Below are positions 29,455 through 55,758 of a stretch of DNA of 64,000 nt, piece after piece (position 1 is the stretch's first letter; the number at the start of each line of letters is the position of its first letter). The position numbers were made by a program, and so were the translations under genes. The notes under the pieces were generated by a model. That model was not told the DNA's origin. It saw only the letters and a list, made by a program, of their open reading frames with translations, and searched no databases. Source of the DNA: a phage; the sequence record PZ445487.1. One strand, given 5' to 3'.

Positions 29455-31671
29455 ATGATTGAATCATTAACATTTAAGAATGCGGTTGCGACCGTCGCGC
29501 CGTCTAACCATGTAATCGTTGTGGATATCTCCGGTTCCATGTATCGTTCACTTCCAGAAGTCCGTAAGCATCTGAAGGAGAACCTGCCTTCCCTGGTGAA
29601 ACCGGAAGATACTGTGAGCATCCTTTACTTTTCATCTCGCGGTGATTTCGGAACGGTATTTGCCGGACGTCAGATTAACAGTGCAACTGATCTCAGTGAG
29701 ATCAATAATTTAATTGACCGTTTCCTGAAGCCTTCTGGTTGTACTGGTTTTGTTGAGCCGCTGAAATTGGCTGCGGAAACTGCCATTAGCTTGAATAAAC
29801 CTGGTTATGTTAATAACCTGGCATTCATGACCGACGGATATGACAACTGCTGGCGTTCTAATGAAATCCTGGATGCCGCTGAAGTACTGCCCAAAGCGTT
29901 TGATAACATTACCTTCATCGAATACGGTTGGTATTGTAATCGCGAACTGCTGGCGCTAATGGCAGAACGTTCTGGTGCGACCCACGTATTCGCCGAAGGC
30001 CAGAATGAATATCAGACCGAATTGGAAAACGTGCTAAAAACTTCTTCACCGAAAGTGGTGGTCGATGTTCCCCTGGTTTACACCCATGCCATTTATGTTG
30101 AAAATGGCGTGGCGACTGTTTTAGCTGTGCATCCTGATGAAGAGCACCCTATTGGCCACGTCAGCATCCCTGAAAGCGTTTCTCAGCTGTGGGTTGTAAA
30201 CCCCAACATGATCGACCAGCTGGATAATCTGGCAGACATCCAAGCGGCATACGTGCTGGCATTTTACGGCGTGTATACCATGGACGCAGATTTGGTTTGG
30301 GCTGCGCTGAAGAAAACGGGTGACGTCCGCTTCATCAAACAATACAGCAACTGTTTCACCAAGCAGGATTACTCCAACATCAAAGTCGATCTGACTCAGG
30401 CTATCGTAGACGAATCTCTGCGAGGAGTTGATGGCATCGATTATAATATGGTTCCGGCTGAAGACGCCACCACCATTGTTGATGTTCTGACGTATTTGGC
30501 TGAAGCAGATGTCTCTATCGTCACCAAGCATCCGCTATTCTCTTACAAGAGCATTGGGCGCGGTACTATACAAAAAGTTGACGACACCGAAGACAAGTTG
30601 GCCGAAGAGATTGCGAATGCGACTTCTAAAGAAGAGCGTAAAGCCCTGGCGCTCAAACTGGCCGAGCACGAAGATTGGACGCCGGAATTCAATCCAGCAG
30701 ATGATAAAGGGATTGTCCCGATCAGCAATTTGGTCTATAATTCAGAACGTCCTAACATCAGTGTGCAGACAGTTCAACACGGAACGGTTATTGTGCCTGA
30801 GTTTGTACAGAAGAAATATGAACTTCCTGAAGAGCTGGGAACCTGGCGTTATCGCAATTACACCATTGTCAAGGATGGTATCATCAACCTGAAAACAATG
30901 CCTATCACTGCAGATTCTCCGATTGTTCGGGCTAAGGTGGCACAGGATTTGACTGCCATGGGTGTTCATGTGTTTGGTGGGCCGGAAGTCTTCATTGTAA
31001 ATCTGGAAAGTGTCCCAATGGTTAACCGCGCCATGACAAAGAATATCAGTGCTGCTGAATTCTTTGCAGACAATGTGCGCCGTGAAGCATTGAAGGCAAA
31101 GCAAAAAGTTCTGAAATTCTACCGTGATGAACTGGTTGGCAAAGGCAACGCTACTGGTCTGGCTTCAAAATATGGCAAAGAAGCGGCTGATTTCCTGTCA
31201 GCAAACGGCATTCGCGACTATGGATTTTCACCGAAGACTTCTTCTGTAGAATCAACCGATGTCTATATGAGTCGTGAATTGAATGTGAAAATCAAAGGCG
31301 CATCTTCACTGCCGAGCATCGCGTCTGTTATCAAAAAACAGACGGACGGTAAAAAACTGAATGTCGCTGATCAGCTGATCGCTAATGCCCTGGCCGAATA
31401 CAATGCGTTTGTTAAATCGCCGATGATCACCAGCGTACCGGAAGAGACTCAGAAAAAGCTGATCGAAAGTTGGATTGGTGATGCAGCAAAAGCAGCTATC
31501 AACGAAGTTCGATCTCTGAACAAAACGCTGTCCAAGGTAGTTTATGGGATTGTTGCAGGCCATGGTTGGTTTACCGACCTGGATTTGGAAGAATCCACTA
31601 TGGATGTGGAAGTTGATGGGGTGAAATACACTGTCACTGCCGAACTGGCTGAAAAAGAAGTCAAAATCTAA
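29455..31671 (+). CDS. von Willebrand factor A (vWA) domain protein (738 aa)
   Basis: N-terminus carries the MIDAS motif in VIVVDISGSMY (DxSxS) with downstream T and D positions typical of vWA; about 550 aa of unassigned sequence follow. SD aagaagg before ATG 29455. Confidence 0.55.
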   Translation: MIESLTFKNAVATVAPSNHVIVVDISGSMYRSLPEVRKHLKENLPSLVKPEDTVSILYFSSRGDFGTVFAGRQINSATDLSEINNLIDRFLKPSGCTGFVEPLKLAAETAISLNKPGYVNNLAFMTDGYDNCWRSNEILDAAEVLPKAFDNITFIEYGWYCNRELLALMAERSGATHVFAEGQNEYQTELENVLKTSSPKVVVDVPLVYTHAIYVENGVATVLAVHPDEEHPIGHVSIPESVSQLWVVNPNMIDQLDNLADIQAAYVLAFYGVYTMDADLVWAALKKTGDVRFIKQYSNCFTKQDYSNIKVDLTQAIVDESLRGVDGIDYNMVPAEDATTIVDVLTYLAEADVSIVTKHPLFSYKSIGRGTIQKVDDTEDKLAEEIANATSKEERKALALKLAEHEDWTPEFNPADDKGIVPISNLVYNSERPNISVQTVQHGTVIVPEFVQKKYELPEELGTWRYRNYTIVKDGIINLKTMPITADSPIVRAKVAQDLTAMGVHVFGGPEVFIVNLESVPMVNRAMTKNISAAEFFADNVRREALKAKQKVLKFYRDELVGKGNATGLASKYGKEAADFLSANGIRDYGFSPKTSSVESTDVYMSRELNVKIKGASSLPSIASVIKKQTDGKKLNVADQLIANALAEYNAFVKSPMITSVPEETQKKLIESWIGDAAKAAINEVRSLNKTLSKVVYGIVAGHGWFTDLDLEESTMDVEVDGVKYTVTAELAEKEVKI

Positions 31672-31679
31672 ATTCAACT

Positions 31680-31700
31680 GGCGGGGAAACCCGCCTTCAT
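31680..31700 (+). terminator. Rho-independent terminator after the vWA gene
   Basis: ggcgggg-aaa-cccgcc then ttcatttt. Confidence 0.5.
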
Positions 31701-32448: not shown

Positions 32449-32955
32449 ATGACCGATCAACAAATTCAAGATTTATTTTACCTCGTCCATGATAAGTCCC
32501 ACATCATGCGCCCTGGCACTGTTTCCCCTGCCATCCGTGGTCTGGTGCAAGAATTACGCGAACCGCAGATGACCACACTTTATCGCGGGTTGCCTAAAGA
32601 GGACGTTGCGCGTTTGGAGATGATGTTTGAACGAGGAGACATGTTTCAGACATGGGATTCTTGTCTTAGTTTCAGCGAACTGAAGCATGTGGCCAAACAA
32701 TTTTCTAAATCGTATGGAACCAAAGCTGTTGCCCGCATTTGTTATAAACATCGAAACGGACTCCCAGAGGGGCTTAATGTCTTTGGTTCTCTAGAAAAAT
32801 TTGTGAACAAAGGCGATGAATCAGAAATGGATATGCTGGACTTGGCGTCCATGGAGAAAGAATGGATATTCTGTCAGCCTCGCGTCTTCCCAGTTTCAAG
32901 AAAAATGGCAACAGATGGGACGATGGTTTTTACCGTATCACTTGTTACCCTATAA
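32449..32955 (+). CDS. Putative ADP-ribosyltransferase (ModA/ModB-like)
   Basis: R-S-ExE arrangement: LYRGLP (Arg), WDSCLSFS (Ser motif), EKEWIF (ExE) in the order and spacing of T4 ModA as I recall it; 168 aa. Confidence 0.4.
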   Translation: MTDQQIQDLFYLVHDKSHIMRPGTVSPAIRGLVQELREPQMTTLYRGLPKEDVARLEMMFERGDMFQTWDSCLSFSELKHVAKQFSKSYGTKAVARICYKHRNGLPEGLNVFGSLEKFVNKGDESEMDMLDLASMEKEWIFCQPRVFPVSRKMATDGTMVFTVSLVTL

Positions 32956-32961
32956 ACCCAC

Positions 32962-33007
32962 GGCGGGGTATCTTTGCCCCGCCCATTTGAAATGAAGGAA
33001 CTATATC
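32962..33007 (+). promoter_or_regulatory. Conserved 5' leader: hairpin plus atttgaaatgaaggaactatatc (second copy)
   Basis: Hairpin ggcgggg-tatctttg-ccccgcc plus leader; the downstream gene also begins MTDQ. Confidence 0.45.
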
Positions 33008-33286
33008 ATGACAGATCAAAGAAGTATTGCTCGTTCGGAAATCAAAGATATTATACAGAGCAAAACCAACGAAACTCATGCTCAATCCAGAATGCTATCT
33101 CGATTTGTTGAAATTAAGTTTGACATTGAAGAGAATAACAATCGGAGAGCGCTGGAGGGAATGTTGGCGATTATCTTGGGCCATGTCACCAATTCAGCAT
33201 ACGACATGGATGATTTAACTCGTTTGTTGAACGCCCAGAATAACGTTGGGAATTCTGTTCGCGAATTGCTGTTTAAGTCCGAATGA
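33008..33286 (+). CDS. Hypothetical protein (92 aa)
   Basis: Shares leader and first four codons (MTDQ) with 32449..32955; the rest is unrelated. Confidence 0.45.
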   Translation: MTDQRSIARSEIKDIIQSKTNETHAQSRMLSRFVEIKFDIEENNNRRALEGMLAIILGHVTNSAYDMDDLTRLLNAQNNVGNSVRELLFKSE

Positions 33287-33323
33287 ACTAACTAAGGGAT
33301 AATCCTATATCCCGAGGTGTGTC

Positions 33324-33773
33324 ATGTTCCTTACATCCTTTATTGACTGGATGAATATCATAAATGGCCTGAGGATTCCTGTTGGGAACCTCGGGCTTTC
33401 TCGTTCTTCTATGCCGCAAATCGATGCCGACAAACAAGAAGATTTTCACAAATATCTTGAAGACAACGGCGTGTCCATAGATGCTGCGCAAGTGCCCATC
33501 AAAATGCTTCGTCTTACCCAGAACGAAATCAATAAAATGAAGGTCTGGAAGATTATGAAGCAGATCAGAAATAAGAAGCCCATGGGTCGAGTTTGGGTGT
33601 CTTCTGACAATTACGTTGTTGACGGGTCTCACCGATTTGTCGCTGCGTTGAACATGGACGGCAAACAGCGCATGAAGGTCTACAAAGTTGATTTGCCAGC
33701 GATGGAATTTGTTAAACTCGCTAAACAGTTTCAGGGTGTGCGATACAGAACGGTCTCAGATTCGAGATACTAA
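33324..33773 (+). CDS. ParB/sulfiredoxin-like nuclease-domain protein
   Basis: YVVDGSHRFVAA matches the ParB N-terminal domain signature (x-DG-HR-xA). Confidence 0.45.
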   Translation: MFLTSFIDWMNIINGLRIPVGNLGLSRSSMPQIDADKQEDFHKYLEDNGVSIDAAQVPIKMLRLTQNEINKMKVWKIMKQIRNKKPMGRVWVSSDNYVVDGSHRFVAALNMDGKQRMKVYKVDLPAMEFVKLAKQFQGVRYRTVSDSRY

Positions 33774-33774
33774 T

Positions 33775-34050
33775 ATGGACGTCTATTCAGAACTTATCGA
33801 AATAGGAGCGAAACGTCATTTCGTAAACAAATATCTTTCGCTCATTTCTTCTTTTAGTCATTACCAAGGCGTCGGGGAGAAGCACCTATTGAAAGGTAAG
33901 ACGAGAGGGGAAGCCCTGAAACAAGTATTCGGTTCCAATGACGCAGAAATTTGGGCACAGGTTCGGCCAATTATTCTACGGTTGGATAACGGTTGGGACC
34001 CTTTAACTTGCGAAAAATGGGTTAATCGTTATGGGGTGGAATACCAGTAA
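33775..34050 (+). CDS. Hypothetical protein (91 aa)
   Basis: Internal ATG of track ORF 33688..34050 chosen to avoid overlap. Confidence 0.35.
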   Translation: MDVYSELIEIGAKRHFVNKYLSLISSFSHYQGVGEKHLLKGKTRGEALKQVFGSNDAEIWAQVRPIILRLDNGWDPLTCEKWVNRYGVEYQ

Positions 34051-34144
34051 ACCACCCGTTTCTGAATACGATAGTTTATTGAAACCCTTTACTCAACATG
34101 GTGACAGCCCTATCATTTTATCCAATGAAATAAGGAGAATCACC

Positions 34145-34834
34145 ATGAAACGTTTAATCATCGGGGTTGTGCTGGCTGGTCTGGCACTTCCTGCCACCGC
34201 CAAGCTGAATTCCACGGGTGAAAAACTGTGGTCTGATCTTTCCTACTGTGCTGGGTTCTCCCAAGCCGTCGCTATAGACAAAACTGGTTCCATAGAGAAC
34301 TTTGCTGAACTCTGGACCACAGGTAATGTCACAGATGCCGTTGTAAATGCTGGTATTGAGTTTAATCGATATAAGCAAGGCGCGTTCAACCTGAAAGGAT
34401 ATATGAACGACAAAGAATTTAACCGAGGAGGCATGGAGGCGAGCGATCTTATTATGACTGGTCGTATGGGCACACAAGGACGAATGACCGTAAGACAGTG
34501 CCGTTCTCTTCCTTCTCCAGCATTACAAAAAGGTGTGCAGGTTGGCCGACGTCAGCTGGATCTCATCAATGATGGCAACCAATGTATCCGAGTATTTGAA
34601 TACAGTGCTGATCAAGAATCAGATCGACGTTTGAAAAAGGAATGGCGGACTCGCGCCCTTGGCCTGAGAGCATGGCTGGTGGAAAATGATCATTATTATG
34701 AAGACCGTGTTCAGAATGGTTTGAAAGATCTTTCCACTAATTTGTCTGTCAATCTTGATGATCCCAGGCTTGCCCGTGAACTCAAGCAAACAAGAATTGA
34801 CTGTGATAATATGATGAAGGAGAACGAAAGATGA
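34145..34834 (+). CDS. Secreted/periplasmic hypothetical protein
   Basis: SD aaggag; N-terminal signal peptide MKRLIIGVVLAGLALPATA. Confidence 0.5.
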   Translation: MKRLIIGVVLAGLALPATAKLNSTGEKLWSDLSYCAGFSQAVAIDKTGSIENFAELWTTGNVTDAVVNAGIEFNRYKQGAFNLKGYMNDKEFNRGGMEASDLIMTGRMGTQGRMTVRQCRSLPSPALQKGVQVGRRQLDLINDGNQCIRVFEYSADQESDRRLKKEWRTRALGLRAWLVENDHYYEDRVQNGLKDLSTNLSVNLDDPRLARELKQTRIDCDNMMKENER

Positions 34835-35151
34835 GAAACATAATATTCTTGTTATTCTTTTCTATGTTGGCATCATTCCAAGTTGTGGCAACTCCGGCTA
34901 GCAAATTGAATATGTGTGCGGCCTGGTTGTCTACTTATCAACAATTTCACCCTGATGATAAAGATACATCCATCCTTTTATCAGATTATGAAGGTGAGTT
35001 GAAACGCCTTGATCTCTACAGCGTGGATCAAATAGAGAATGCTTTGGATTTGCCAATGATGGAGTCCGCTGCCGACAATAGCAAACAGACGATCAAAGAT
35101 CTGACTATGTGTCGGGAAATAGCGACTAATTTCGTTGGAAATCAAAGATAA
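34831..35151 (+). CDS. Small secreted hypothetical protein
   Basis: ATGA overlap with the preceding gene; signal peptide MRNIIFLLFFSMLASFQVVA. Confidence 0.45.
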   Translation: MRNIIFLLFFSMLASFQVVATPASKLNMCAAWLSTYQQFHPDDKDTSILLSDYEGELKRLDLYSVDQIENALDLPMMESAADNSKQTIKDLTMCREIATNFVGNQR

Positions 35152-35201
35152 TTTTCAGGTTAAAATTTAACTTCCATTGAACTGAAAGGAAATACTTCGT
35201 G

Positions 35202-35993
35202 ATGATTATTACCAAAAAGATCGCCGAATCGATCATTGAAAAGAATAAGATGTTCGCGCCCAACAAAGCAAAGGTCATTCTGATTCACGAAGACGGACGC
35301 GTCATCTTCGCTGAAAAGTTCGAGCAGGGTTGTGCTTTCTGGTTCGCAGACACTATGCGCGAAAGCAAGCTGCAGGGCATCATCTATAAACTGACTCTGG
35401 TTGCCAAGCGCAATGATCAGGGTGATTGGGTTACGGTTTGTGATTTCAGCTCCAAGGTTGATACTCGACCAAAATCTCGCCAAGAGAGAATTCTGGAAGC
35501 TCAGGAAAAACTTGTTGCTGCTCGTACTTCACCAGTCGTTAAGCCCGCAGTCATCTCCCCTTCTATTGATCTGCCGCCTGTCAGCCAAAAGGCTGTTGAG
35601 CAATATGCAGAAAAACGAAAAGAAGAACCCGTGAAGTCTCCAGTTGAGAATAAAGAAGAATCTGAATTTATTTCAATCAGGCAATTATGCCCGCAAGAAA
35701 GGCGATTTTCTTCACCAAATGATTTATTCGTGTCTTTCCGGTCTAATGGGAAGATTATATTGTGCAAAACCCTACGGGAACAATTGCAGTGGCCTAACAT
35801 CAATATGATGGTGAGTCGGAACTTCAAACGATTCGCAATCGGTGAAGGTAAAGATTATCCTGTTAATAAGAGCGGAACATATGCAAATCGTCATATGTGC
35901 GACAAATTGTCTTTCCCAAACGATTCTGGCACTATTCGTGTTCGTTTAGAATGGGATGAAAGTTTGAACATGTATGTCGGTGATATAAAATAA
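35202..35993 (+). CDS. Hypothetical protein (263 aa)
   Basis: Preceded by a leader related to the conserved one (gaaaggaaatacttc). Confidence 0.5.
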   Translation: MIITKKIAESIIEKNKMFAPNKAKVILIHEDGRVIFAEKFEQGCAFWFADTMRESKLQGIIYKLTLVAKRNDQGDWVTVCDFSSKVDTRPKSRQERILEAQEKLVAARTSPVVKPAVISPSIDLPPVSQKAVEQYAEKRKEEPVKSPVENKEESEFISIRQLCPQERRFSSPNDLFVSFRSNGKIILCKTLREQLQWPNINMMVSRNFKRFAIGEGKDYPVNKSGTYANRHMCDKLSFPNDSGTIRVRLEWDESLNMYVGDIK

Positions 35994-36050
35994 TTCAATA
36001 ACATTAGGGCGGTTATTATTAAACCGCCTTTTATTTGAGAGATCTATATT

Positions 36051-36719
36051 ATGAACAACAAGAGCCGTATTATCATCGGGGCTGACCAGGGTAATTTATA
36101 TTTTGAAAGATCTGGTGTTGTCGCCCACGCTATCCTTCCCACTGGAATTTCCGTTTATTGTGTGGAACATCCTGACCCTGCAGTTAAACGTCTTTGCTAT
36201 GTCTCCCGTGAAAATGGACTAATTGTATTGCCAGAAGGCGCGATTATGCGCGCTCGTTTTTGGCCGATCGATTTTAATTCCATGAGCAATAGGGAGATCG
36301 ACGCCCGTTTCTTCGTACATAATATGAACCGGACTCTGAAAAATGAAACTCAGAGAGTTGTTCATTTCGACAATGAAACTCATGGAGTGACGTTAGAATT
36401 CAGAACTCGTGGTGAAGCTCTTCAGGTGAAGAAATCAAGCTGGAAAACTGAAGGGACGTTCACATATGATTATGCGTTAATCGACAAATTGTGTAATCAG
36501 TTTCGCATTAGCCTGACTGCCAACGACGATTTAGGTCAGTATGTTGTATGGACAGCCCGTTCACCACATATGAACGGTATCATGATGGAGAGTGAAACTC
36601 GTAATCGCGCTGTGCTCCAACTGCTGCTGTTAGACGCGTATTCTCGCAACCCGTTGGAATATCTGTCTCGGGAACAGATTGATAACGCGCTTTCTCATTG
36701 TAACCGTCTGGAGGTGTAA
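36051..36719 (+). CDS. Hypothetical protein (222 aa)
   Basis: ORF with no recognisable motif. Confidence 0.5.
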   Translation: MNNKSRIIIGADQGNLYFERSGVVAHAILPTGISVYCVEHPDPAVKRLCYVSRENGLIVLPEGAIMRARFWPIDFNSMSNREIDARFFVHNMNRTLKNETQRVVHFDNETHGVTLEFRTRGEALQVKKSSWKTEGTFTYDYALIDKLCNQFRISLTANDDLGQYVVWTARSPHMNGIMMESETRNRAVLQLLLLDAYSRNPLEYLSREQIDNALSHCNRLEV

Positions 36720-36720
36720 T

Positions 36721-37008
36721 ATGTCCGGCGTATGGTGTGATGTATTGTTGGTAAGATTTTCAAACGGGATGGATAATCAGATCATTTCATTCTTTTATCC
36801 TGTTCCCTTTTCTTCTATGGGTCTGACTGTCAAGCGCGTTCTTGACATAGAAGAAAAACTCAACACGATGCCGTATATGGCGCGACCACACGTGCTGGGT
36901 TGTGAACTGTTAAACGAAATGATGATTGACGAGAATCTTGTTGAAACAATTATCACGCGTGAACAGATGAAAACCATACTGTCTCAGGGAGAACCCCATG
37001 TCGAATAA
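36721..37008 (+). CDS. Hypothetical protein (95 aa)
   Basis: ATG immediately after the preceding stop. Confidence 0.4.
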   Translation: MSGVWCDVLLVRFSNGMDNQIISFFYPVPFSSMGLTVKRVLDIEEKLNTMPYMARPHVLGCELLNEMMIDENLVETIITREQMKTILSQGEPHVE

Positions 37009-37318
37009 ACCGTTTGAACTTAAATTTCGCGTTTGGCATATTCCCCAGGTTCCTGGGATCGCTTTTCATGTTGAGGTTCCAACATTTGAAGAAGCGCAGC
37101 GCCTGAAGAATACTCTGGCTGATTATGATTTGTTCCAGTTCAACAACAATATCAAGCCGGATTATTGTAATGCTTCGGGCATTCAGATTTATCAACATGA
37201 TCTGACTGAAGAAGATCTAAATGATATGGGACTGGATGATCGTTGGGTTGATATCGAAGATATTGACGAACTCAACGATTATTTTGATCATCTGCGTAGC
37301 ACAGGGTGGGAAATATGA
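36998..37318 (+). CDS. Hypothetical acidic protein (106 aa)
   Basis: ORF overlapping neighbouring gene ends; Asp/Glu-rich C-terminus. Confidence 0.45.
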   Translation: MSNKPFELKFRVWHIPQVPGIAFHVEVPTFEEAQRLKNTLADYDLFQFNNNIKPDYCNASGIQIYQHDLTEEDLNDMGLDDRWVDIEDIDELNDYFDHLRSTGWEI

Positions 37319-37524
37319 TCGGGTTAATCCGTTATCTGTTCATATTCGTAATAACAACATTCATTTTATTTTTCTTTTTCAAATACTTGAAAGAGACTAA
37401 AATCTACCGGAGTAAACGTTGGCGCAAACGGGTGAGGGTAACTTTCCTACTGCTGATTTCTTCGGTTACAATAACTGCACTCACATTGGGTGCTTATATT
37501 TACATTTTTGAAGGAGTACATTGA
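37315..37524 (+). CDS. Small membrane protein (69 aa, two predicted TM segments)
   Basis: Hydrophobic stretches LIRYLFIFVITTFILFFFF and FLLLISSVTITALTLGAYIYIF; overlaps the downstream SPFH gene start. Confidence 0.4.
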   Translation: MIGLIRYLFIFVITTFILFFFFKYLKETKIYRSKRWRKRVRVTFLLLISSVTITALTLGAYIYIFEGVH

Positions 37525-38315
37525 TGTTCAAGAAACTGGTATTTGGCGCAATTATGGTCCTAGCGGCAAGCCTTCTTTCAGGCTGCGGCGGTGTTATCGA
37601 TGAAGGAAACGTCGGTGTTCGAACCCAATGGGGTGAAGTGGACATGAACCCTGTAACCGCAGGTATCTACACCAGTTTCGTTTCAAGTGTAGATGTCTAT
37701 ACGACTAAAGAAGCCGTCGTGAGTCTGACGAAAATGACGCCAAAGGCCAAAGACAACCTGACCTTGGAAGATCTGGATGTGGACGTTTATTACACACCGA
37801 ACGTCGCGAAGGTTCCTTGGTTCCATACCAAATTTGCAGGTCAGAGCGCTGAACTCGGTGACGGCACGATAGCGGTGGGATTCAACCTGGTTAAAACCGC
37901 CGCAGCATCCTCAACGATGGACGCCGTTTCTTCTTTGGATTCTATGACAATTCACACCCAACGGGCTGAGTTAGAAAAGATGATCAAGGAACGCACCCAG
38001 CAGCAATTAGAAACAGCTGCACCTGGCATGTTCACAATCACACGCGTGTTGGTCAAAAAGGCGCTGACAGATCCTTCGATTGAGCAATCTATCCGTGATA
38101 ATGTCATGGCCGACAAACGTTTGGATACAGCAAGAAAGAACGTTGAAATTCGCGACCAAGAAGCCAAGGCGAATCAGAAACTGACGACATCTCTGACACC
38201 TGAATATTTACAACACGAATATAACATGGTGTTGCAATCTTGCGCCAACAGCGGGAAATGTACTCTGATTGTTGATGGTTCAGGCTCAAGTAAAATGCTA
38301 AACGTCGGCAAATAA
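37521..38315 (+). CDS. Lipoprotein with SPFH/band-7-like domain
   Basis: Lipoprotein signal MMFKKLVFGAIMVLAASLLSGC; then IDEGNVGVRTQWGEV, resembling the start of SPFH domains; helical C-terminus. Confidence 0.5.
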   Translation: MMFKKLVFGAIMVLAASLLSGCGGVIDEGNVGVRTQWGEVDMNPVTAGIYTSFVSSVDVYTTKEAVVSLTKMTPKAKDNLTLEDLDVDVYYTPNVAKVPWFHTKFAGQSAELGDGTIAVGFNLVKTAAASSTMDAVSSLDSMTIHTQRAELEKMIKERTQQQLETAAPGMFTITRVLVKKALTDPSIEQSIRDNVMADKRLDTARKNVEIRDQEAKANQKLTTSLTPEYLQHEYNMVLQSCANSGKCTLIVDGSGSSKMLNVGK

Positions 38316-54963: not shown

Positions 54964-55758
54964 ATGGCCATTCTAAAACTTGGCAACCGAGGTTCTGAAG
55001 TCAAAGCACTTCAACAAAGCCTCAACAAAATCGGTTTCTCTCTTACAGCCGATGGCATATTTGGTAAGGCAACAGAGAATGCCGTCAAATCCGTTCAGGC
55101 AGGTGCTGGATTGGTTATTGATGGTATTGCTGGGCCAAAGACCTTCTATGCTATCCGCAACGCTGGAGACGCTCACCAGGAACATCTGACCGAAGCGGAC
55201 TTGGTTGACGCAGCACGTGAACTTGGTGTTGAGCTGGCCAGTATGAAAGCGGTGAACCAGGTAGAATCCCGTGGTACGGGTTTTACCAAAACTGGCAAGA
55301 TCAAAACTCTGTTTGAGCGCCACATCATGTACAAAAAGGTGACGGCCAAATTCGGGCAAGCAAGAGCCAATGCTCTGTACCAACTCTACCCAACATTGGT
55401 TAACCCCAATTCTGGCGGGTATATCGGCGGAGACGCGGAGTTGGAACGCCTTCAGGGTGCAATCGCCCTTGACGAGGACTGCGCTTACGAGAGTGCTTCC
55501 TACGGCCTATTCCAGATCATGGGGTTCAACTGCCAAATCTGTGGCTATTCAAATGCCAAAGAGATGTTCACTGATTTCCTGACTGGTGAACGCGCTCATC
55601 TTCTGGCATTTGTCAAGTTCATCAAGGCTGATGCCAATATGTGGAAAGCCCTGAAGAACAAGAATTGGGCCGAGTTTGCTCGTCGGTACAATGGTCCGGC
55701 ATATGCGAAAAACCAGTATGATACTAAACTGGCGGCAGCATACAAGAGTTTCTGTTAA
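54964..55758 (+). CDS. Endolysin: peptidoglycan-binding domain plus N-acetylmuramidase-like domain
   Basis: N-terminal PG_binding_1-type repeat (LKLGNRGSEVKALQQSLNKIGF...DGIFGKATENAVKSVQ...IDGIAGPKTF); C-terminal FARRYNGPAYAKNQYDTKLAAAY typical of phage muramidases. SD gcggagg. Confidence 0.8.
   Translation: MAILKLGNRGSEVKALQQSLNKIGFSLTADGIFGKATENAVKSVQAGAGLVIDGIAGPKTFYAIRNAGDAHQEHLTEADLVDAARELGVELASMKAVNQVESRGTGFTKTGKIKTLFERHIMYKKVTAKFGQARANALYQLYPTLVNPNSGGYIGGDAELERLQGAIALDEDCAYESASYGLFQIMGFNCQICGYSNAKEMFTDFLTGERAHLLAFVKFIKADANMWKALKNKNWAEFARRYNGPAYAKNQYDTKLAAAYKSFC

What the first reader, a model, noticed from the sequence alone, without database searches (positions are those of the whole stretch)
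34145..35151. Two consecutive secreted proteins of unknown function
Both ORFs carry N-terminal signal peptides and overlap by ATGA. Phage periplasmic proteins are typically involved in exclusion of superinfecting phage or in lysis regulation.
Basis: partly seen in the sequence, partly recalled or inferred. Interest (0 to 1): 0.35.

Follow-up and report, generated by a model that had tools for sequence, protein, structure and literature searches.

The report
Conserved periplasmic protein pair, mislabelled spanin
Two overlapping genes of E. coli O157 phage CBA120 encode a conserved pair of exported, disulfide-containing periplasmic proteins that databases call a "spanin", a label the sequences do not support, so their role in the infected cell's envelope remains open.

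Summary
The window is Escherichia phage CBA120 (Kuttervirus, Ackermannviridae), reverse strand. orf135 (34145-34834, 229 aa) and orf133 (34831-35151, 106 aa) overlap by ATGA, each has a strong ribosome-binding site, and each starts with a textbook Sec/SPase-I signal peptide.

The pair is a core module of Ackermannviridae: 278 phage records, plus relatives at about 30% identity in which the two genes still abut or overlap. It has no Pfam, NCBIfam or PDB relative. A confident AF2 model of orf133 (pLDDT 89.7, five helices after the signal) matches nothing solved.

Databases label the pair "Rz-like spanin" or "i-/o-spanin". That label traces to one student annotation of phage Marshall, whose orf133 orthologue has a lipobox. 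CBA120 and 34 of 41 cluster representatives have none. orf135 has a 12-residue h-region followed by AxA rather than a membrane anchor, and no coiled coil. The same paper that lists Marshall's spanin lists CBA120 as spanin-less.

I read the pair as a soluble periplasmic two-protein complex made before late transcription. Its most likely role is a response to secondary infection: superinfection exclusion or the lysis inhibition reported for CBA120. The function is inferred, not shown. Interest is moderate.

The parts
34132..34137 (+). Ribosome-binding site AAGGAG of ORF1, 7 nt before the ATG
   Evidence: Read directly from the sequence. The same -25..-1 stretch occurs in phages Mansal and rabagast.
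34145..34834 (+). ORF1 = CBA120 orf135/gp106, 229 aa; mature periplasmic protein about 210 aa (24 kDa, pI 7.8) with 4 invariant Cys (C35, C119, C147, C220)
   Evidence: phrog_4260, unknown function. No Pfam, NCBIfam or PDB hit. Only 10 hits among 1.84 billion representative proteins.
34145..34201 (+). ORF1 signal peptide (residues 1-19, MKRLIIGVVLAGLALPATA); predicted SPase-I cleavage A19|K20
   Evidence: Rule-based: 12-residue h-region, Pro at -4, Ala at -3 and -1. The (P/S)A-x-A|(K/G) c-region is kept in all 23 close representatives, and an SPase-I-type site also in the distant relatives.
34817..34822 (+). Ribosome-binding site AAGGAG of ORF2, inside the 3' end of ORF1
   Evidence: Read directly from the sequence.
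34831..34834 (+). ATGA start/stop overlap (translational coupling)
   Evidence: A 4-nt overlap recurs in L008 and in Serratia phage 3M, and a 1-nt overlap in L007.
34831..35151 (+). ORF2 = CBA120 orf133/gp105, 106 aa; mature periplasmic protein about 86 aa (9.8 kDa, pI 4.5), five helices, 2 invariant Cys (C29, C94)
   Evidence: AF2 pLDDT 89.7. No PDB fold match; the only BFVD match is its orthologue in Erwinia phage phiEa2809. phrog_3843, labelled 'Rz-like spanin'.
34831..34890 (+). ORF2 signal peptide (residues 1-20, MRNIIFLLFFSMLASFQVVA); predicted SPase-I cleavage A20|T21; no lipobox
   Evidence: 34 of 41 representatives have a plain A-x-A type site. 7 have a lipobox-like motif (6 L-[IV]-[AV]-G-C, 1 ISSC).

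Best explanation
orf135 and orf133 are a translationally coupled two-gene module. Both products are exported by Sec, lose a cleavable signal peptide, and fold in the periplasm as soluble, disulfide-stabilised proteins of 24 kDa (near-neutral) and 9.8 kDa (acidic, helical). They most likely act together as a complex.

The module sits in the replication/early gene block, with no late-promoter motif nearby, so the proteins are probably in the periplasm well before lysis. The role I consider most likely is a periplasmic response to secondary infection, analogous to T4 Spackle/Imm or the T4 RI antiholin but not homologous to them. The pair would either block a superinfecting phage's envelope penetration or feed the lysis-inhibition signal that CBA120 is reported to show.

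Shown:
- gene structure
- signal-peptide features
- conservation as a pair
- invariant Cys
- absence of spanin-defining features in CBA120
- an orphan fold for ORF2

Inferred:
- signal-peptide cleavage
- complex formation
- expression timing
- the function itself

Confidence is about 0.8 for 'soluble periplasmic pair, not a canonical spanin' and about 0.35 for the exclusion/lysis-timing role. The figure given below is for the latter.
For: - **Topology.** Sec/SPase-I-type N-termini are kept in every orthologue while the sequence drifts. All Cys are invariant. The upstream alternative start is not conserved.
- **Pairing.** ORF1- and ORF2-homologues are adjacent or overlapping in 278 phage records and in relatives at ~30% identity. 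Both are core genes of Vi01-like phages and do not appear among the virion proteins in the Table 6 excerpts I read (PMC10892097).
- **Timing.** The motif CTAAATA marks late genes (ACTAAATA in 8 of 31 late-gene upstream regions against 0.11 expected). About 17 of its 25 genomic copies lie 25-50 nt before a start codon. None lies between window positions 17.6 and 46.8 kb. That interval holds clamp, clamp loader, helicases and the gp46/47 homologues as well as this pair.
- **Biology.** Kutter et al. 2011 report T4-like lysis inhibition of CBA120 at high MOI, with no holin or antiholin identified, and note that the T4 antiholin is periplasmic (PMC3184105). CBA120 has a gp5-type tail lysozyme, which is the target class of T4 Spackle (T4 knowledge from memory).
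Against: - There is no sequence or fold similarity to RI, holin T, Spackle or Imm.
- Core-gene status and high conservation (ORF1 75-93% identical across the 22 cluster representatives) are unusual for exclusion genes, which tend to be variable.
- No partner (a holin with a periplasmic domain) has been identified.
- Expression timing is inferred only from the absence of a motif that I derived here myself.
- The AF2 model of ORF1 is poor (pLDDT 43.5), so its fold is unknown.
Confidence: 0.35

Rival explanations
1. The pair is the phage's outer-membrane disruption system, a spanin, as GenBank and RefSeq label it. orf135 would stay anchored in the inner membrane by an uncleaved N-terminus. orf133 would reach the outer membrane through a lipid anchor in some clades and by protein binding in others. 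The complex would then destroy the outer membrane after peptidoglycan is degraded.
For: - The gene architecture (long gene, then a short gene with a 4-nt overlap) matches 'separated/overlapped' spanins (Kongari 2018).
- 7 of 41 ORF2 representatives, including phage Marshall, carry a lipobox with Val at +2 in the Marshall-type sequences (an outer-membrane sorting rule, from memory).
- No other plausible spanin exists in the 157-kb genome, and the family is listed as spanin-less. A core envelope pair could therefore fill the gap.
- Periplasmic Cys are typical of spanins (Kongari 2018 abstract).
Against: - CBA120 and 34 of 41 representatives have no lipobox. The lipobox variants keep the SPase-I site VNA|AP right behind the Cys, and P0005 and P0010 differ there only by S/C.
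- All distant relatives lack a lipobox.
- ORF1 has a 12-residue h-region plus AxA, and only three residues (MKR) before it.
- ORF2 is a compact five-helix domain with 3 Pro.
- Serratia phage 3M has only a 126-aa ORF1.
- The endolysin is 20 kb away.
Confidence: 0.12
2. The pair is a periplasmic host-takeover or maintenance factor unrelated to secondary infection. It might inhibit or sequester a conserved host periplasmic enzyme (a lytic transglycosylase or other peptidoglycan hydrolase, a protease, a nuclease). Alternatively it might be an assembly partner for the phage's own envelope proteins, the 2-TMD protein orf127A and the SPFH lipoprotein orf126.
For: - Very strong purifying selection on the mature parts, and core status across genera, suggest a conserved target.
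- In relative L007 the pair directly precedes the orf127A-like and SPFH genes, giving a four-gene envelope cluster.
- Some clades anchor ORF2 as a lipoprotein and others leave it soluble. This recalls soluble/lipoprotein inhibitor pairs such as PliC/MliC (from memory, not tested).
Against: There is no similarity to any known inhibitor family or fold. The linkage to the SPFH genes is interrupted by four other genes in CBA120. There is no positive evidence for any specific target.
Confidence: 0.3
3. orf135 is a T4-T-like holin (a single TMD with a large periplasmic domain) and orf133 is its RI-like periplasmic antiholin.
For: The sizes and gross topology resemble T4 T (218 aa) and RI (97 aa) (T4 values from memory). 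No holin is known for CBA120, and lysis inhibition has been reported.
Against: ORF1 has no cytoplasmic N-terminal domain (only MKR), its 12-residue h-region is too short for a stable TMD, and it has a conserved AxA site. There is no Pfam holin-T hit. ORF2 has no fold match to RI. The position lacks a late promoter, which is odd for a holin.
Confidence: 0.05

Closest known systems
Two-component spanins (lambda Rz/Rz1; T4 PseT.3/PseT.2), the label these genes carry in RefSeq, PHROGs and several GenBank records
   Same: A longer gene followed by a short overlapping gene. Both products are targeted to the envelope. Periplasmic Cys are present. In one Kuttervirus clade (Marshall/Maynard type) the short protein is a predicted outer-membrane lipoprotein.
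   Different: There is no lipobox in CBA120 or in most orthologues. The long protein has a cleavable-type signal rather than a TMD, with no coiled coil, and is about twice the usual length. The short protein is a compact helical domain, not Pro-rich or disordered. There is no sequence homology and no linkage to the endolysin. Kongari et al. 2018 list CBA120 itself as spanin-less.
T4 RI antiholin (with holin T): the periplasmic lysis-inhibition sensor
   Same: A small protein (about 100 aa) with an N-terminal export signal and a helical periplasmic domain. The phage shows lysis inhibition at high MOI. The protein acts in the periplasm.
   Different: There is no sequence or fold similarity. No T-type holin partner has been found. 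Here there are two exported proteins encoded as a coupled pair.
T4 Spackle (gp61.3) and Imm: superinfection exclusion
   Same: Small proteins exported or membrane-targeted to the envelope of the infected cell, in a phage whose tail carries a gp5-type lysozyme.
   Different: There is no homology or fold match. CBA120's gp5 lysozyme is of a different type from T4's (Kutter 2011). The two-protein arrangement differs, and this module is much more strongly conserved.
Periplasmic versus lipoprotein lysozyme inhibitors (PliC/MliC, Ivy); resemblance recalled from memory only
   Same: One small periplasmic domain that exists either as a soluble protein or as a lipoprotein in different lineages.
   Different: There is no Pfam hit and no PDB fold match. 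ORF2 is all-helical. This is a lead, not a tested relationship.

Membership tests
o-spanin (Rz1-like outer-membrane lipoprotein) | N-terminal SPase-II signal with a lipobox, [LVI][ASTVI][GAS]-C (or AWAC), giving a lipidated Cys | tested here: not met
   CBA120 ORF2 reads MRNIIFLLFFSMLASFQVVA|TPASKLNMC. The only early Cys is preceded by K-L-N-M. 34 of 41 cluster representatives and all distant relatives lack a lipobox; 7 have one.
o-spanin (Rz1-like outer-membrane lipoprotein) | Short mature periplasmic segment, Pro-rich, with little predicted secondary structure | tested here: not met
   The AF2 model has pLDDT 89.7 and five helices covering most of residues 25-104. The mature protein has 3 Pro in 86 residues. 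The SpaninDB table gives 56% helix for the Marshall orthologue.
o-spanin / i-spanin gene pair | o-spanin gene embedded in, overlapping, or immediately downstream of the i-spanin gene | tested here: met
   ATGA overlap at 34831-34834. On its own this is common in phage operons.
i-spanin (Rz-like type II inner-membrane protein) | N-terminal uncleaved transmembrane domain (about 20 hydrophobic residues) | tested here: not met
   The h-region LIIGVVLAGLAL is 12 residues, followed by P-A-T-A|K. A (P/S)A-x-A c-region is kept in all 23 close representatives, and the distant relatives P0068, P0069 and P0075 have equally short h-regions with small-x-small sites. A lambda-type Rz from the same supplement has a 20-residue uncharged, non-polar run. 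This is rule-based; actual cleavage needs an experiment.
i-spanin (Rz-like type II inner-membrane protein) | Periplasmic domain dominated by coiled-coil helices, usually 100-130 aa | tested here: not met
   The mature domain is 210 aa. SpaninDB lists 0 coiled coils and 35% helix for the Marshall orthologue, with the comment 'too long?'. The heptad scan is weaker than for Rz and the windows are interrupted by Gly/Pro. Only residues 140-229 are modelled as helices, at pLDDT around 70.
Spanins (any) | Sequence homology to a characterised spanin family | tested here: not met
   There are no Pfam or NCBIfam hits at E<=0.1-1. The only 'spanin' hit is phrog_3843, a 106-position profile that ORF2 matches end to end. 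GenBank records cite 'i-spanin [Salmonella phage Marshall]' and 'lipoprotein [phage Maynard]' as their sources.
Spanins (any) | Required for outer-membrane disruption; complements lambda Rz/Rz1 defects | not testable with these tools
   No experimental report was found in the paper library.
T4 RI-type antiholin | Homology or fold similarity to RI | tested here: not met
   There is no Pfam hit. Foldseek of the confident ORF2 model against the PDB gives a best E-value of 2.4 and TM below 0.27.
T4 RI-type antiholin | Exported small periplasmic domain in a phage that shows lysis inhibition | tested here: met
   Signal peptide plus an 86-aa helical domain. Lysis inhibition of CBA120 is reported by Kutter et al. 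2011. This is a functional analogy only.
T4 RI-type antiholin | Binds the periplasmic domain of the phage holin | not testable with these tools
   No holin has been identified in CBA120.
T4 Spackle-type superinfection exclusion | Fold or sequence similarity to Spackle | tested here: not met
   No PDB sequence hit and no Foldseek hit.
T4 Spackle-type superinfection exclusion | Inhibits the tail-associated lysozyme of incoming phage | not testable with these tools
   CBA120 encodes a gp5-like hub/lysozyme, orf092. The interaction was not modelled.

The most novel reading that the evidence does not exclude
The orf135/orf133 module is the missing envelope-lysis component of the 'spanin-less, holin-less' Ackermannviridae. 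It would be either a new, non-membrane-anchored way of breaching the outer membrane or the periplasmic sensor/antiholin behind their T4-like lysis inhibition. In either case it is built from an orphan fold unrelated to Rz/Rz1, RI or Spackle.
Probability: 0.22. Interest if true: 0.75.

Novelty: new variant of a known kind. Interest (0 to 1): 0.4.

Why it matters
Ackermannviridae (Vi01/CBA120-like phages) are widely used for biocontrol and detection of Salmonella and E. coli O157. Their lysis pathway is still unresolved. The 2011 genome paper found no holin or antiholin. The 2018 spanin census lists them as spanin-less.

This gene pair is nevertheless labelled 'Rz-like spanin' or 'i-/o-spanin' in many of the sampled RefSeq and GenBank records. 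The label appears to rest on one lineage-specific lipobox. Showing that matters for two reasons:
- It stops an unsupported function from propagating further.
- It leaves a core, exported protein pair with an orphan fold as one of the few concrete candidates for the family's unexplained envelope biology: lysis inhibition, superinfection exclusion, or outer-membrane breach.

The candidate is easy to test genetically.

Tried and rejected
1. **Profile and sequence searches.** Pfam, NCBIfam and PDB-sequence searches of both proteins and their alignments found nothing.
2. **Exhaustive HMM search.** A search of 1.84 billion representative proteins with the ORF1 profile gave only 10 hits, all from the same narrow family.
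3. **AF2 of ORF1.** The 23-sequence alignment gave pLDDT 43.5. Its Foldseek hits (E>3) are meaningless and I ignored them.
4. **ORF2 against known T4 proteins.** I tested whether ORF2 resembles T4 Spackle or RI using Foldseek against the PDB. There was no match. BFVD returned only an orthologue.
5. **ORF1 and ORF2 as paralogues.** hhalign gave 12.6% probability over 21 columns around the first Cys. This is not supported, although both proteins share a first-Cys/last-Cys layout.
6. **Another spanin elsewhere in CBA120.** The lipobox-bearing ORFs are orf126 (SPFH), orf238, orf170 and a 60-aa unannotated ORF at record 30806-30988. None has an adjacent type II membrane partner or a C-terminal TMD.
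7. **Longer ORF1 from ATG 34031**, which would give a cytoplasmic N-domain. I rejected it because the extension is closed by stops or lacks starts in relatives.
8. **Promoters.** The sigma-70 scan was not above background (24 found against 18.8 +/- 4.6). T4's TATAAATA occurs once in 64 kb.
9. **Literature.** Searches for experiments on these genes found only annotation tables.
Full report
**Identity of the window and of the two ORFs**

A megablast of window 33000-37000 is 100% identical to Escherichia phage CBA120 (JN593240 / NC_016570; Kuttervirus, Ackermannviridae) on the reverse strand. Window position w corresponds to record position 110302 - w.

The finding's two ORFs are the annotated CDSs:
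- orf135/gp106, window 34145-34834, 229 aa, 'hypothetical protein'.
- orf133/gp105, window 34831-35151, 106 aa, 'Rz-like spanin' in RefSeq.

Each has an AAGGAG ribosome-binding site 7-8 nt upstream. The ORF2 ATG and the ORF1 TGA share ATGA at 34831-34834.

A longer ORF1 reading from ATG 34031 exists in CBA120. It is closed by a stop in phage Mansal and has no counterpart in more distant relatives, so 34145 is the real start.

**Are they secreted?**

ORF1 begins MKR-LIIGVVLAGLAL-PATA|KLN. ORF2 begins MRN-IIFLLFFSMLASF-QVVA|TPAS. Both have a basic n-region, a 12-13-residue hydrophobic core and small residues at -3 and -1, which is the classical Sec/SPase-I pattern.

I could not run SignalP, so comparison carries the argument.
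- All 23 ORF1 cluster representatives keep (P/S)A-x-A|(K/G).
- The three distant ORF1 relatives found in an exhaustive search of 1.84 billion representative proteins have unrelated but equally canonical signal peptides: P0068, P0069 and P0075, at 31-34% identity.
- In the ORF2 family the signal region has drifted to 30% mean pairwise identity while the mature part stays at 70%. Every member still looks like a signal peptide ending just before a conserved Pro-containing mature N-terminus, typically (A/T/V/E)P(P/A)(S/N)xLN.
- The four Cys of mature ORF1 and the two of ORF2 are invariant, including in the distant relatives.
- Serratia phage 3M carries a short ORF1 of 126 aa that retains only the first and last Cys. 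This suggests disulfides C35-C220 and C119-C147 (inference).
- A crude scan of the whole genome finds only about seven annotated genes with a Sec-type N-terminus.

**Distribution and linkage**

tblastn finds ORF2 in 278 phage records with Salmonella, Klebsiella, Escherichia, Dickeya, Serratia, Shigella, Enterobacter and a few other host names; every record I opened is Ackermannviridae. The sampled records are about 150-160 kb, the size of Vi01-like genomes.

A published CoreGenes analysis lists both genes in the 114-gene core of Vi01-like phages. Neither appears among the CsCl-purified virion proteins in the Table 6 excerpts I read (PMC10892097).

The ORF1 homologue is again immediately followed by an ORF2 homologue in three divergent genomes:
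- L007, a metagenomic contig of 156 kb: 1-nt overlap.
- L008, a metagenomic contig: 4-nt overlap.
- Serratia phage 3M: 4-nt overlap.

In all three, both proteins have SPase-I-type signals and no lipobox. The two genes are therefore a conserved, translationally coupled unit, which argues that the proteins work together.

**What the proteins look like**

Neither protein hits Pfam, NCBIfam or any PDB sequence. PHROGs places them in phrog_4260 (unknown function) and phrog_3843 ('Rz-like spanin').

AF2 on a 41-sequence alignment gives a confident ORF2 model:
- pLDDT 89.7 and pTM 0.76.
- After the signal helix, five helices cover residues 25-104.
- Foldseek finds nothing in the PDB: best E-value 2.4, TM below 0.27.
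- In BFVD it finds only the orthologue from Erwinia phage phiEa2809 (E 2e-5, TM 0.8, 30% identity).

The ORF2 fold is an orphan. In particular it does not match T4 RI, holin T or Spackle, whose solved structures I recall being in the PDB.

AF2 on ORF1 failed (pLDDT 43.5). Only residues 140-229 are modelled, as helices at pLDDT around 70, and I drew no conclusion from its Foldseek output.

Mature ORF1 is 24 kDa with pI 7.8. Mature ORF2 is 9.8 kDa with pI 4.5.

**The spanin label**

Several records call the pair i-spanin/o-spanin or 'Rz-like spanin': Mansal, pSC20, rabagast and RefSeq.

The trail leads to Kongari et al. 2018 (PMC6139136).
- Their SpaninDB lists the orthologous pair of Salmonella phage Marshall as a 'separated' spanin.
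[quoted passage not shown] 464 submission, taking his word!'. Both proteins are singletons, with 0 predicted coiled coils, 35% helix for the 'i-spanin' and 56% helix for the 'o-spanin'.
- Table 10 of the same paper lists vB_EcoM_CBA120, Phax-I, Vi01, SFP10, SJ2, SJ3, Maynard and phiSboM-AG3 as spanin-less.
- GenBank notes in phage rabagast cite 'i-spanin [Salmonella phage Marshall]' and 'lipoprotein [Salmonella phage Maynard]' as their sources.
- Mansal's 'o-spanin' is 100% identical to CBA120 ORF2.

The difference between the lineages is concrete.
- Marshall's ORF2 starts MKCKILLLMVLIAG|CVNAAPPSKLN, which contains a canonical lipobox. CBA120's does not.
- Among the 41 cluster representatives only 7 have a lipobox-like motif.
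- In six of them the ancestral SPase-I site (V/G)NA|(A/T)P sits directly behind the Cys; the seventh (P0032) has ISSC followed by VVGTSDA|AV.
- P0005 (AGSVNATP) and P0010 (AGCVNATP) differ there by a single S/C.
- All distant relatives lack a lipobox. The lipid anchor is therefore a lineage-specific acquisition, not a property of the family.

Together with the signal-peptide-like rather than TMD-like N-terminus of ORF1, its globular non-coiled-coil nature, the 126-aa ORF1 of phage 3M and the compact helical ORF2, the defining features of both spanin subunits were tested and not met for CBA120. Only the gene arrangement fits.

I found no alternative canonical spanin elsewhere in the genome. CBA120 remains spanin-less by current criteria.

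**Context and timing**

The pair lies in a same-strand block running from the sliding clamp to gp46/47. The block includes an acyl carrier protein, an Alt-like fragment, a ParB-N-like protein, a homing-endonuclease remnant, the 2-TMD protein orf127A, the SPFH lipoprotein orf126, an HU-like protein and a helicase. The endolysin (window 54964-55758) is 20 kb away.

Terminator-like hairpins at 31680-31695 and 36006-36030 bracket a possible transcription unit. Sigma-70-like sites are not above background, and T4's TATAAATA occurs only once in the window.

I then looked for k-mers enriched upstream of structural genes.
- ACTAAATA occurs in 8 of 31 late-gene upstream regions against 0.11 expected; CTAAATA occurs in 10 of 31.
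- Of the 25 genomic copies of CTAAATA, about 17 lie 25-50 nt before a start codon.
- All 8 copies in the window are on the coding strand.

This is probably the gp55-type late promoter, which Kutter et al. 2011 said had not been identified. No copy lies between window positions 17.6 and 46.8 kb. The pair therefore appears to be transcribed with the pre-late genes. That is an inference from a motif I derived here.

**Mechanism**

What is shown is a coupled pair of Sec-exported, Cys-conserving proteins that are not canonical spanins. What they do is inferred.

Kutter et al. 2011 reported the following:
- No holin or antiholin had been identified for CBA120.
- The T4 antiholin RI is a labile periplasmic protein.

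In T4 the periplasmic players of secondary-infection responses (Sp, Imm, RI) are made early (from memory). On this basis I favour a periplasmic complex that deals with secondary infection, either exclusion or lysis-inhibition signalling. I put this at about 0.35.

The rivals are:
- A host-envelope takeover or inhibitor role, or a partner role for the neighbouring SPFH/2-TMD proteins (about 0.3). These four genes are contiguous in L007.
- A non-canonical spanin (about 0.12).
- A T-like holin plus antiholin (about 0.05).

The strongest arguments against my preferred reading are the lack of any fold similarity to the T4 proteins and the unusually strong conservation and core status of the module.

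**Novelty and verdict**

The genes themselves are known and annotated. What is new here is threefold:
- The widely propagated spanin label is not supported.
- ORF2 has an orphan fold.
- The pair is a conserved soluble periplasmic module, and so a tractable candidate for the unexplained lysis and lysis-inhibition biology of Ackermannviridae.

I rate it as a new variant of a known kind (phage-encoded periplasmic accessory proteins), with interest 0.4. The most novel reading not excluded is a new lysis or lysis-inhibition component, at probability about 0.22.

Noticed in passing
window 2215, 6998, 8216, 17552, 46836, 47423, 51029, 51625 (all + strand): The motif (A)CTAAATA(C/T) is strongly enriched 25-50 nt upstream of CBA120 structural-gene starts: ACTAAATA in 8 of 31 late-gene upstream regions against 0.11 expected, and 25 copies of CTAAATA genome-wide. 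It is probably the gp55-dependent late promoter of Ackermannviridae, which the 2011 genome paper said was unidentified. No copy lies between window positions 17.6 and 46.8 kb.
   Followed up: partly
window 37315-37524 and 37524-38315: orf127A is a 69-aa protein with 2 TMDs and a very basic loop. It is directly followed by orf126, an SPFH/Band-7 lipoprotein (lipobox LLSG|C, Pfam PF01145, E 1e-12). In the metagenomic relative L007 these two genes follow the ORF1/ORF2 homologues without a gap, giving a four-gene envelope cluster. The function of a phage periplasmic SPFH lipoprotein is unknown.
   Followed up: partly
window 33775-34050: A 91-aa ORF matches only the C-terminal end of a homing-endonuclease family (phrog_655, E 2e-7). 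RefSeq annotates only a short piece of it (orf136). Related phages such as GG32 carry an annotated homing endonuclease at this site, and their alignments break into two pieces here. It looks like a decayed mobile endonuclease just upstream of ORF1.
   Followed up: no
window 32449-32955: orf140 (168 aa) matches only positions 1270-1425 of a 1480-position 'RNA polymerase ADP-ribosylase' PHROG (E 1e-15). It is a stand-alone fragment or domain of an Alt-like protein, and the RefSeq product name may overstate it.
   Followed up: no
window 33324-33773: orf137 (149 aa) matches the middle of a 740-position PHROG of unknown function and, weakly, ParB-N-like nuclease/partition families. Phage rabagast annotates its orthologue as 'putative structural protein'.
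   Followed up: no
L010 3124-3806 (Serratia phage vB_SmaA_3M): The ORF1 counterpart is only 126 aa. It has the N-terminal domain plus the last-Cys motif and lacks the segment carrying C119/C147 and the helical C-terminal region. It still overlaps an ORF2 homologue by 4 nt. This defines the minimal module and suggests the Cys pairing.
   Followed up: partly
L008 2739-3077 and 5782-6189: In this distant relative a third secreted protein (112 aa, signal MEMKLSNIFLAVVLMSPLSTFA|AKG) follows the pair. A lipoprotein (lipobox LYG|C, Pfam Phage_VG64) sits a few genes downstream, before the HU-like gene. This is another cluster of envelope-targeted proteins at the same genomic position.
   Followed up: no
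window 36006-36030 and 31680-31695: Two strong terminator-like hairpins lie on the + strand: 9 bp with 5 GC pairs followed by TTATTT, and 6 GC pairs followed by a T-rich tail. They bracket the block from the acyl carrier protein gene to orf131, which contains the pair.
   Followed up: no
literature: PMC6139136, Table 10 versus supplementary SpaninDB: The spanin census is internally inconsistent for this phage family. Marshall is scored as having a two-component spanin (this gene pair). Its close relatives Maynard, Vi01, SFP10, SJ2/SJ3, PhaxI, CBA120 and AG3 are listed as spanin-less. Maynard groups with the lipobox-bearing Marshall-type sequences in tblastn identity, and other records cite its orthologue as a 'lipoprotein'.
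   Followed up: yes
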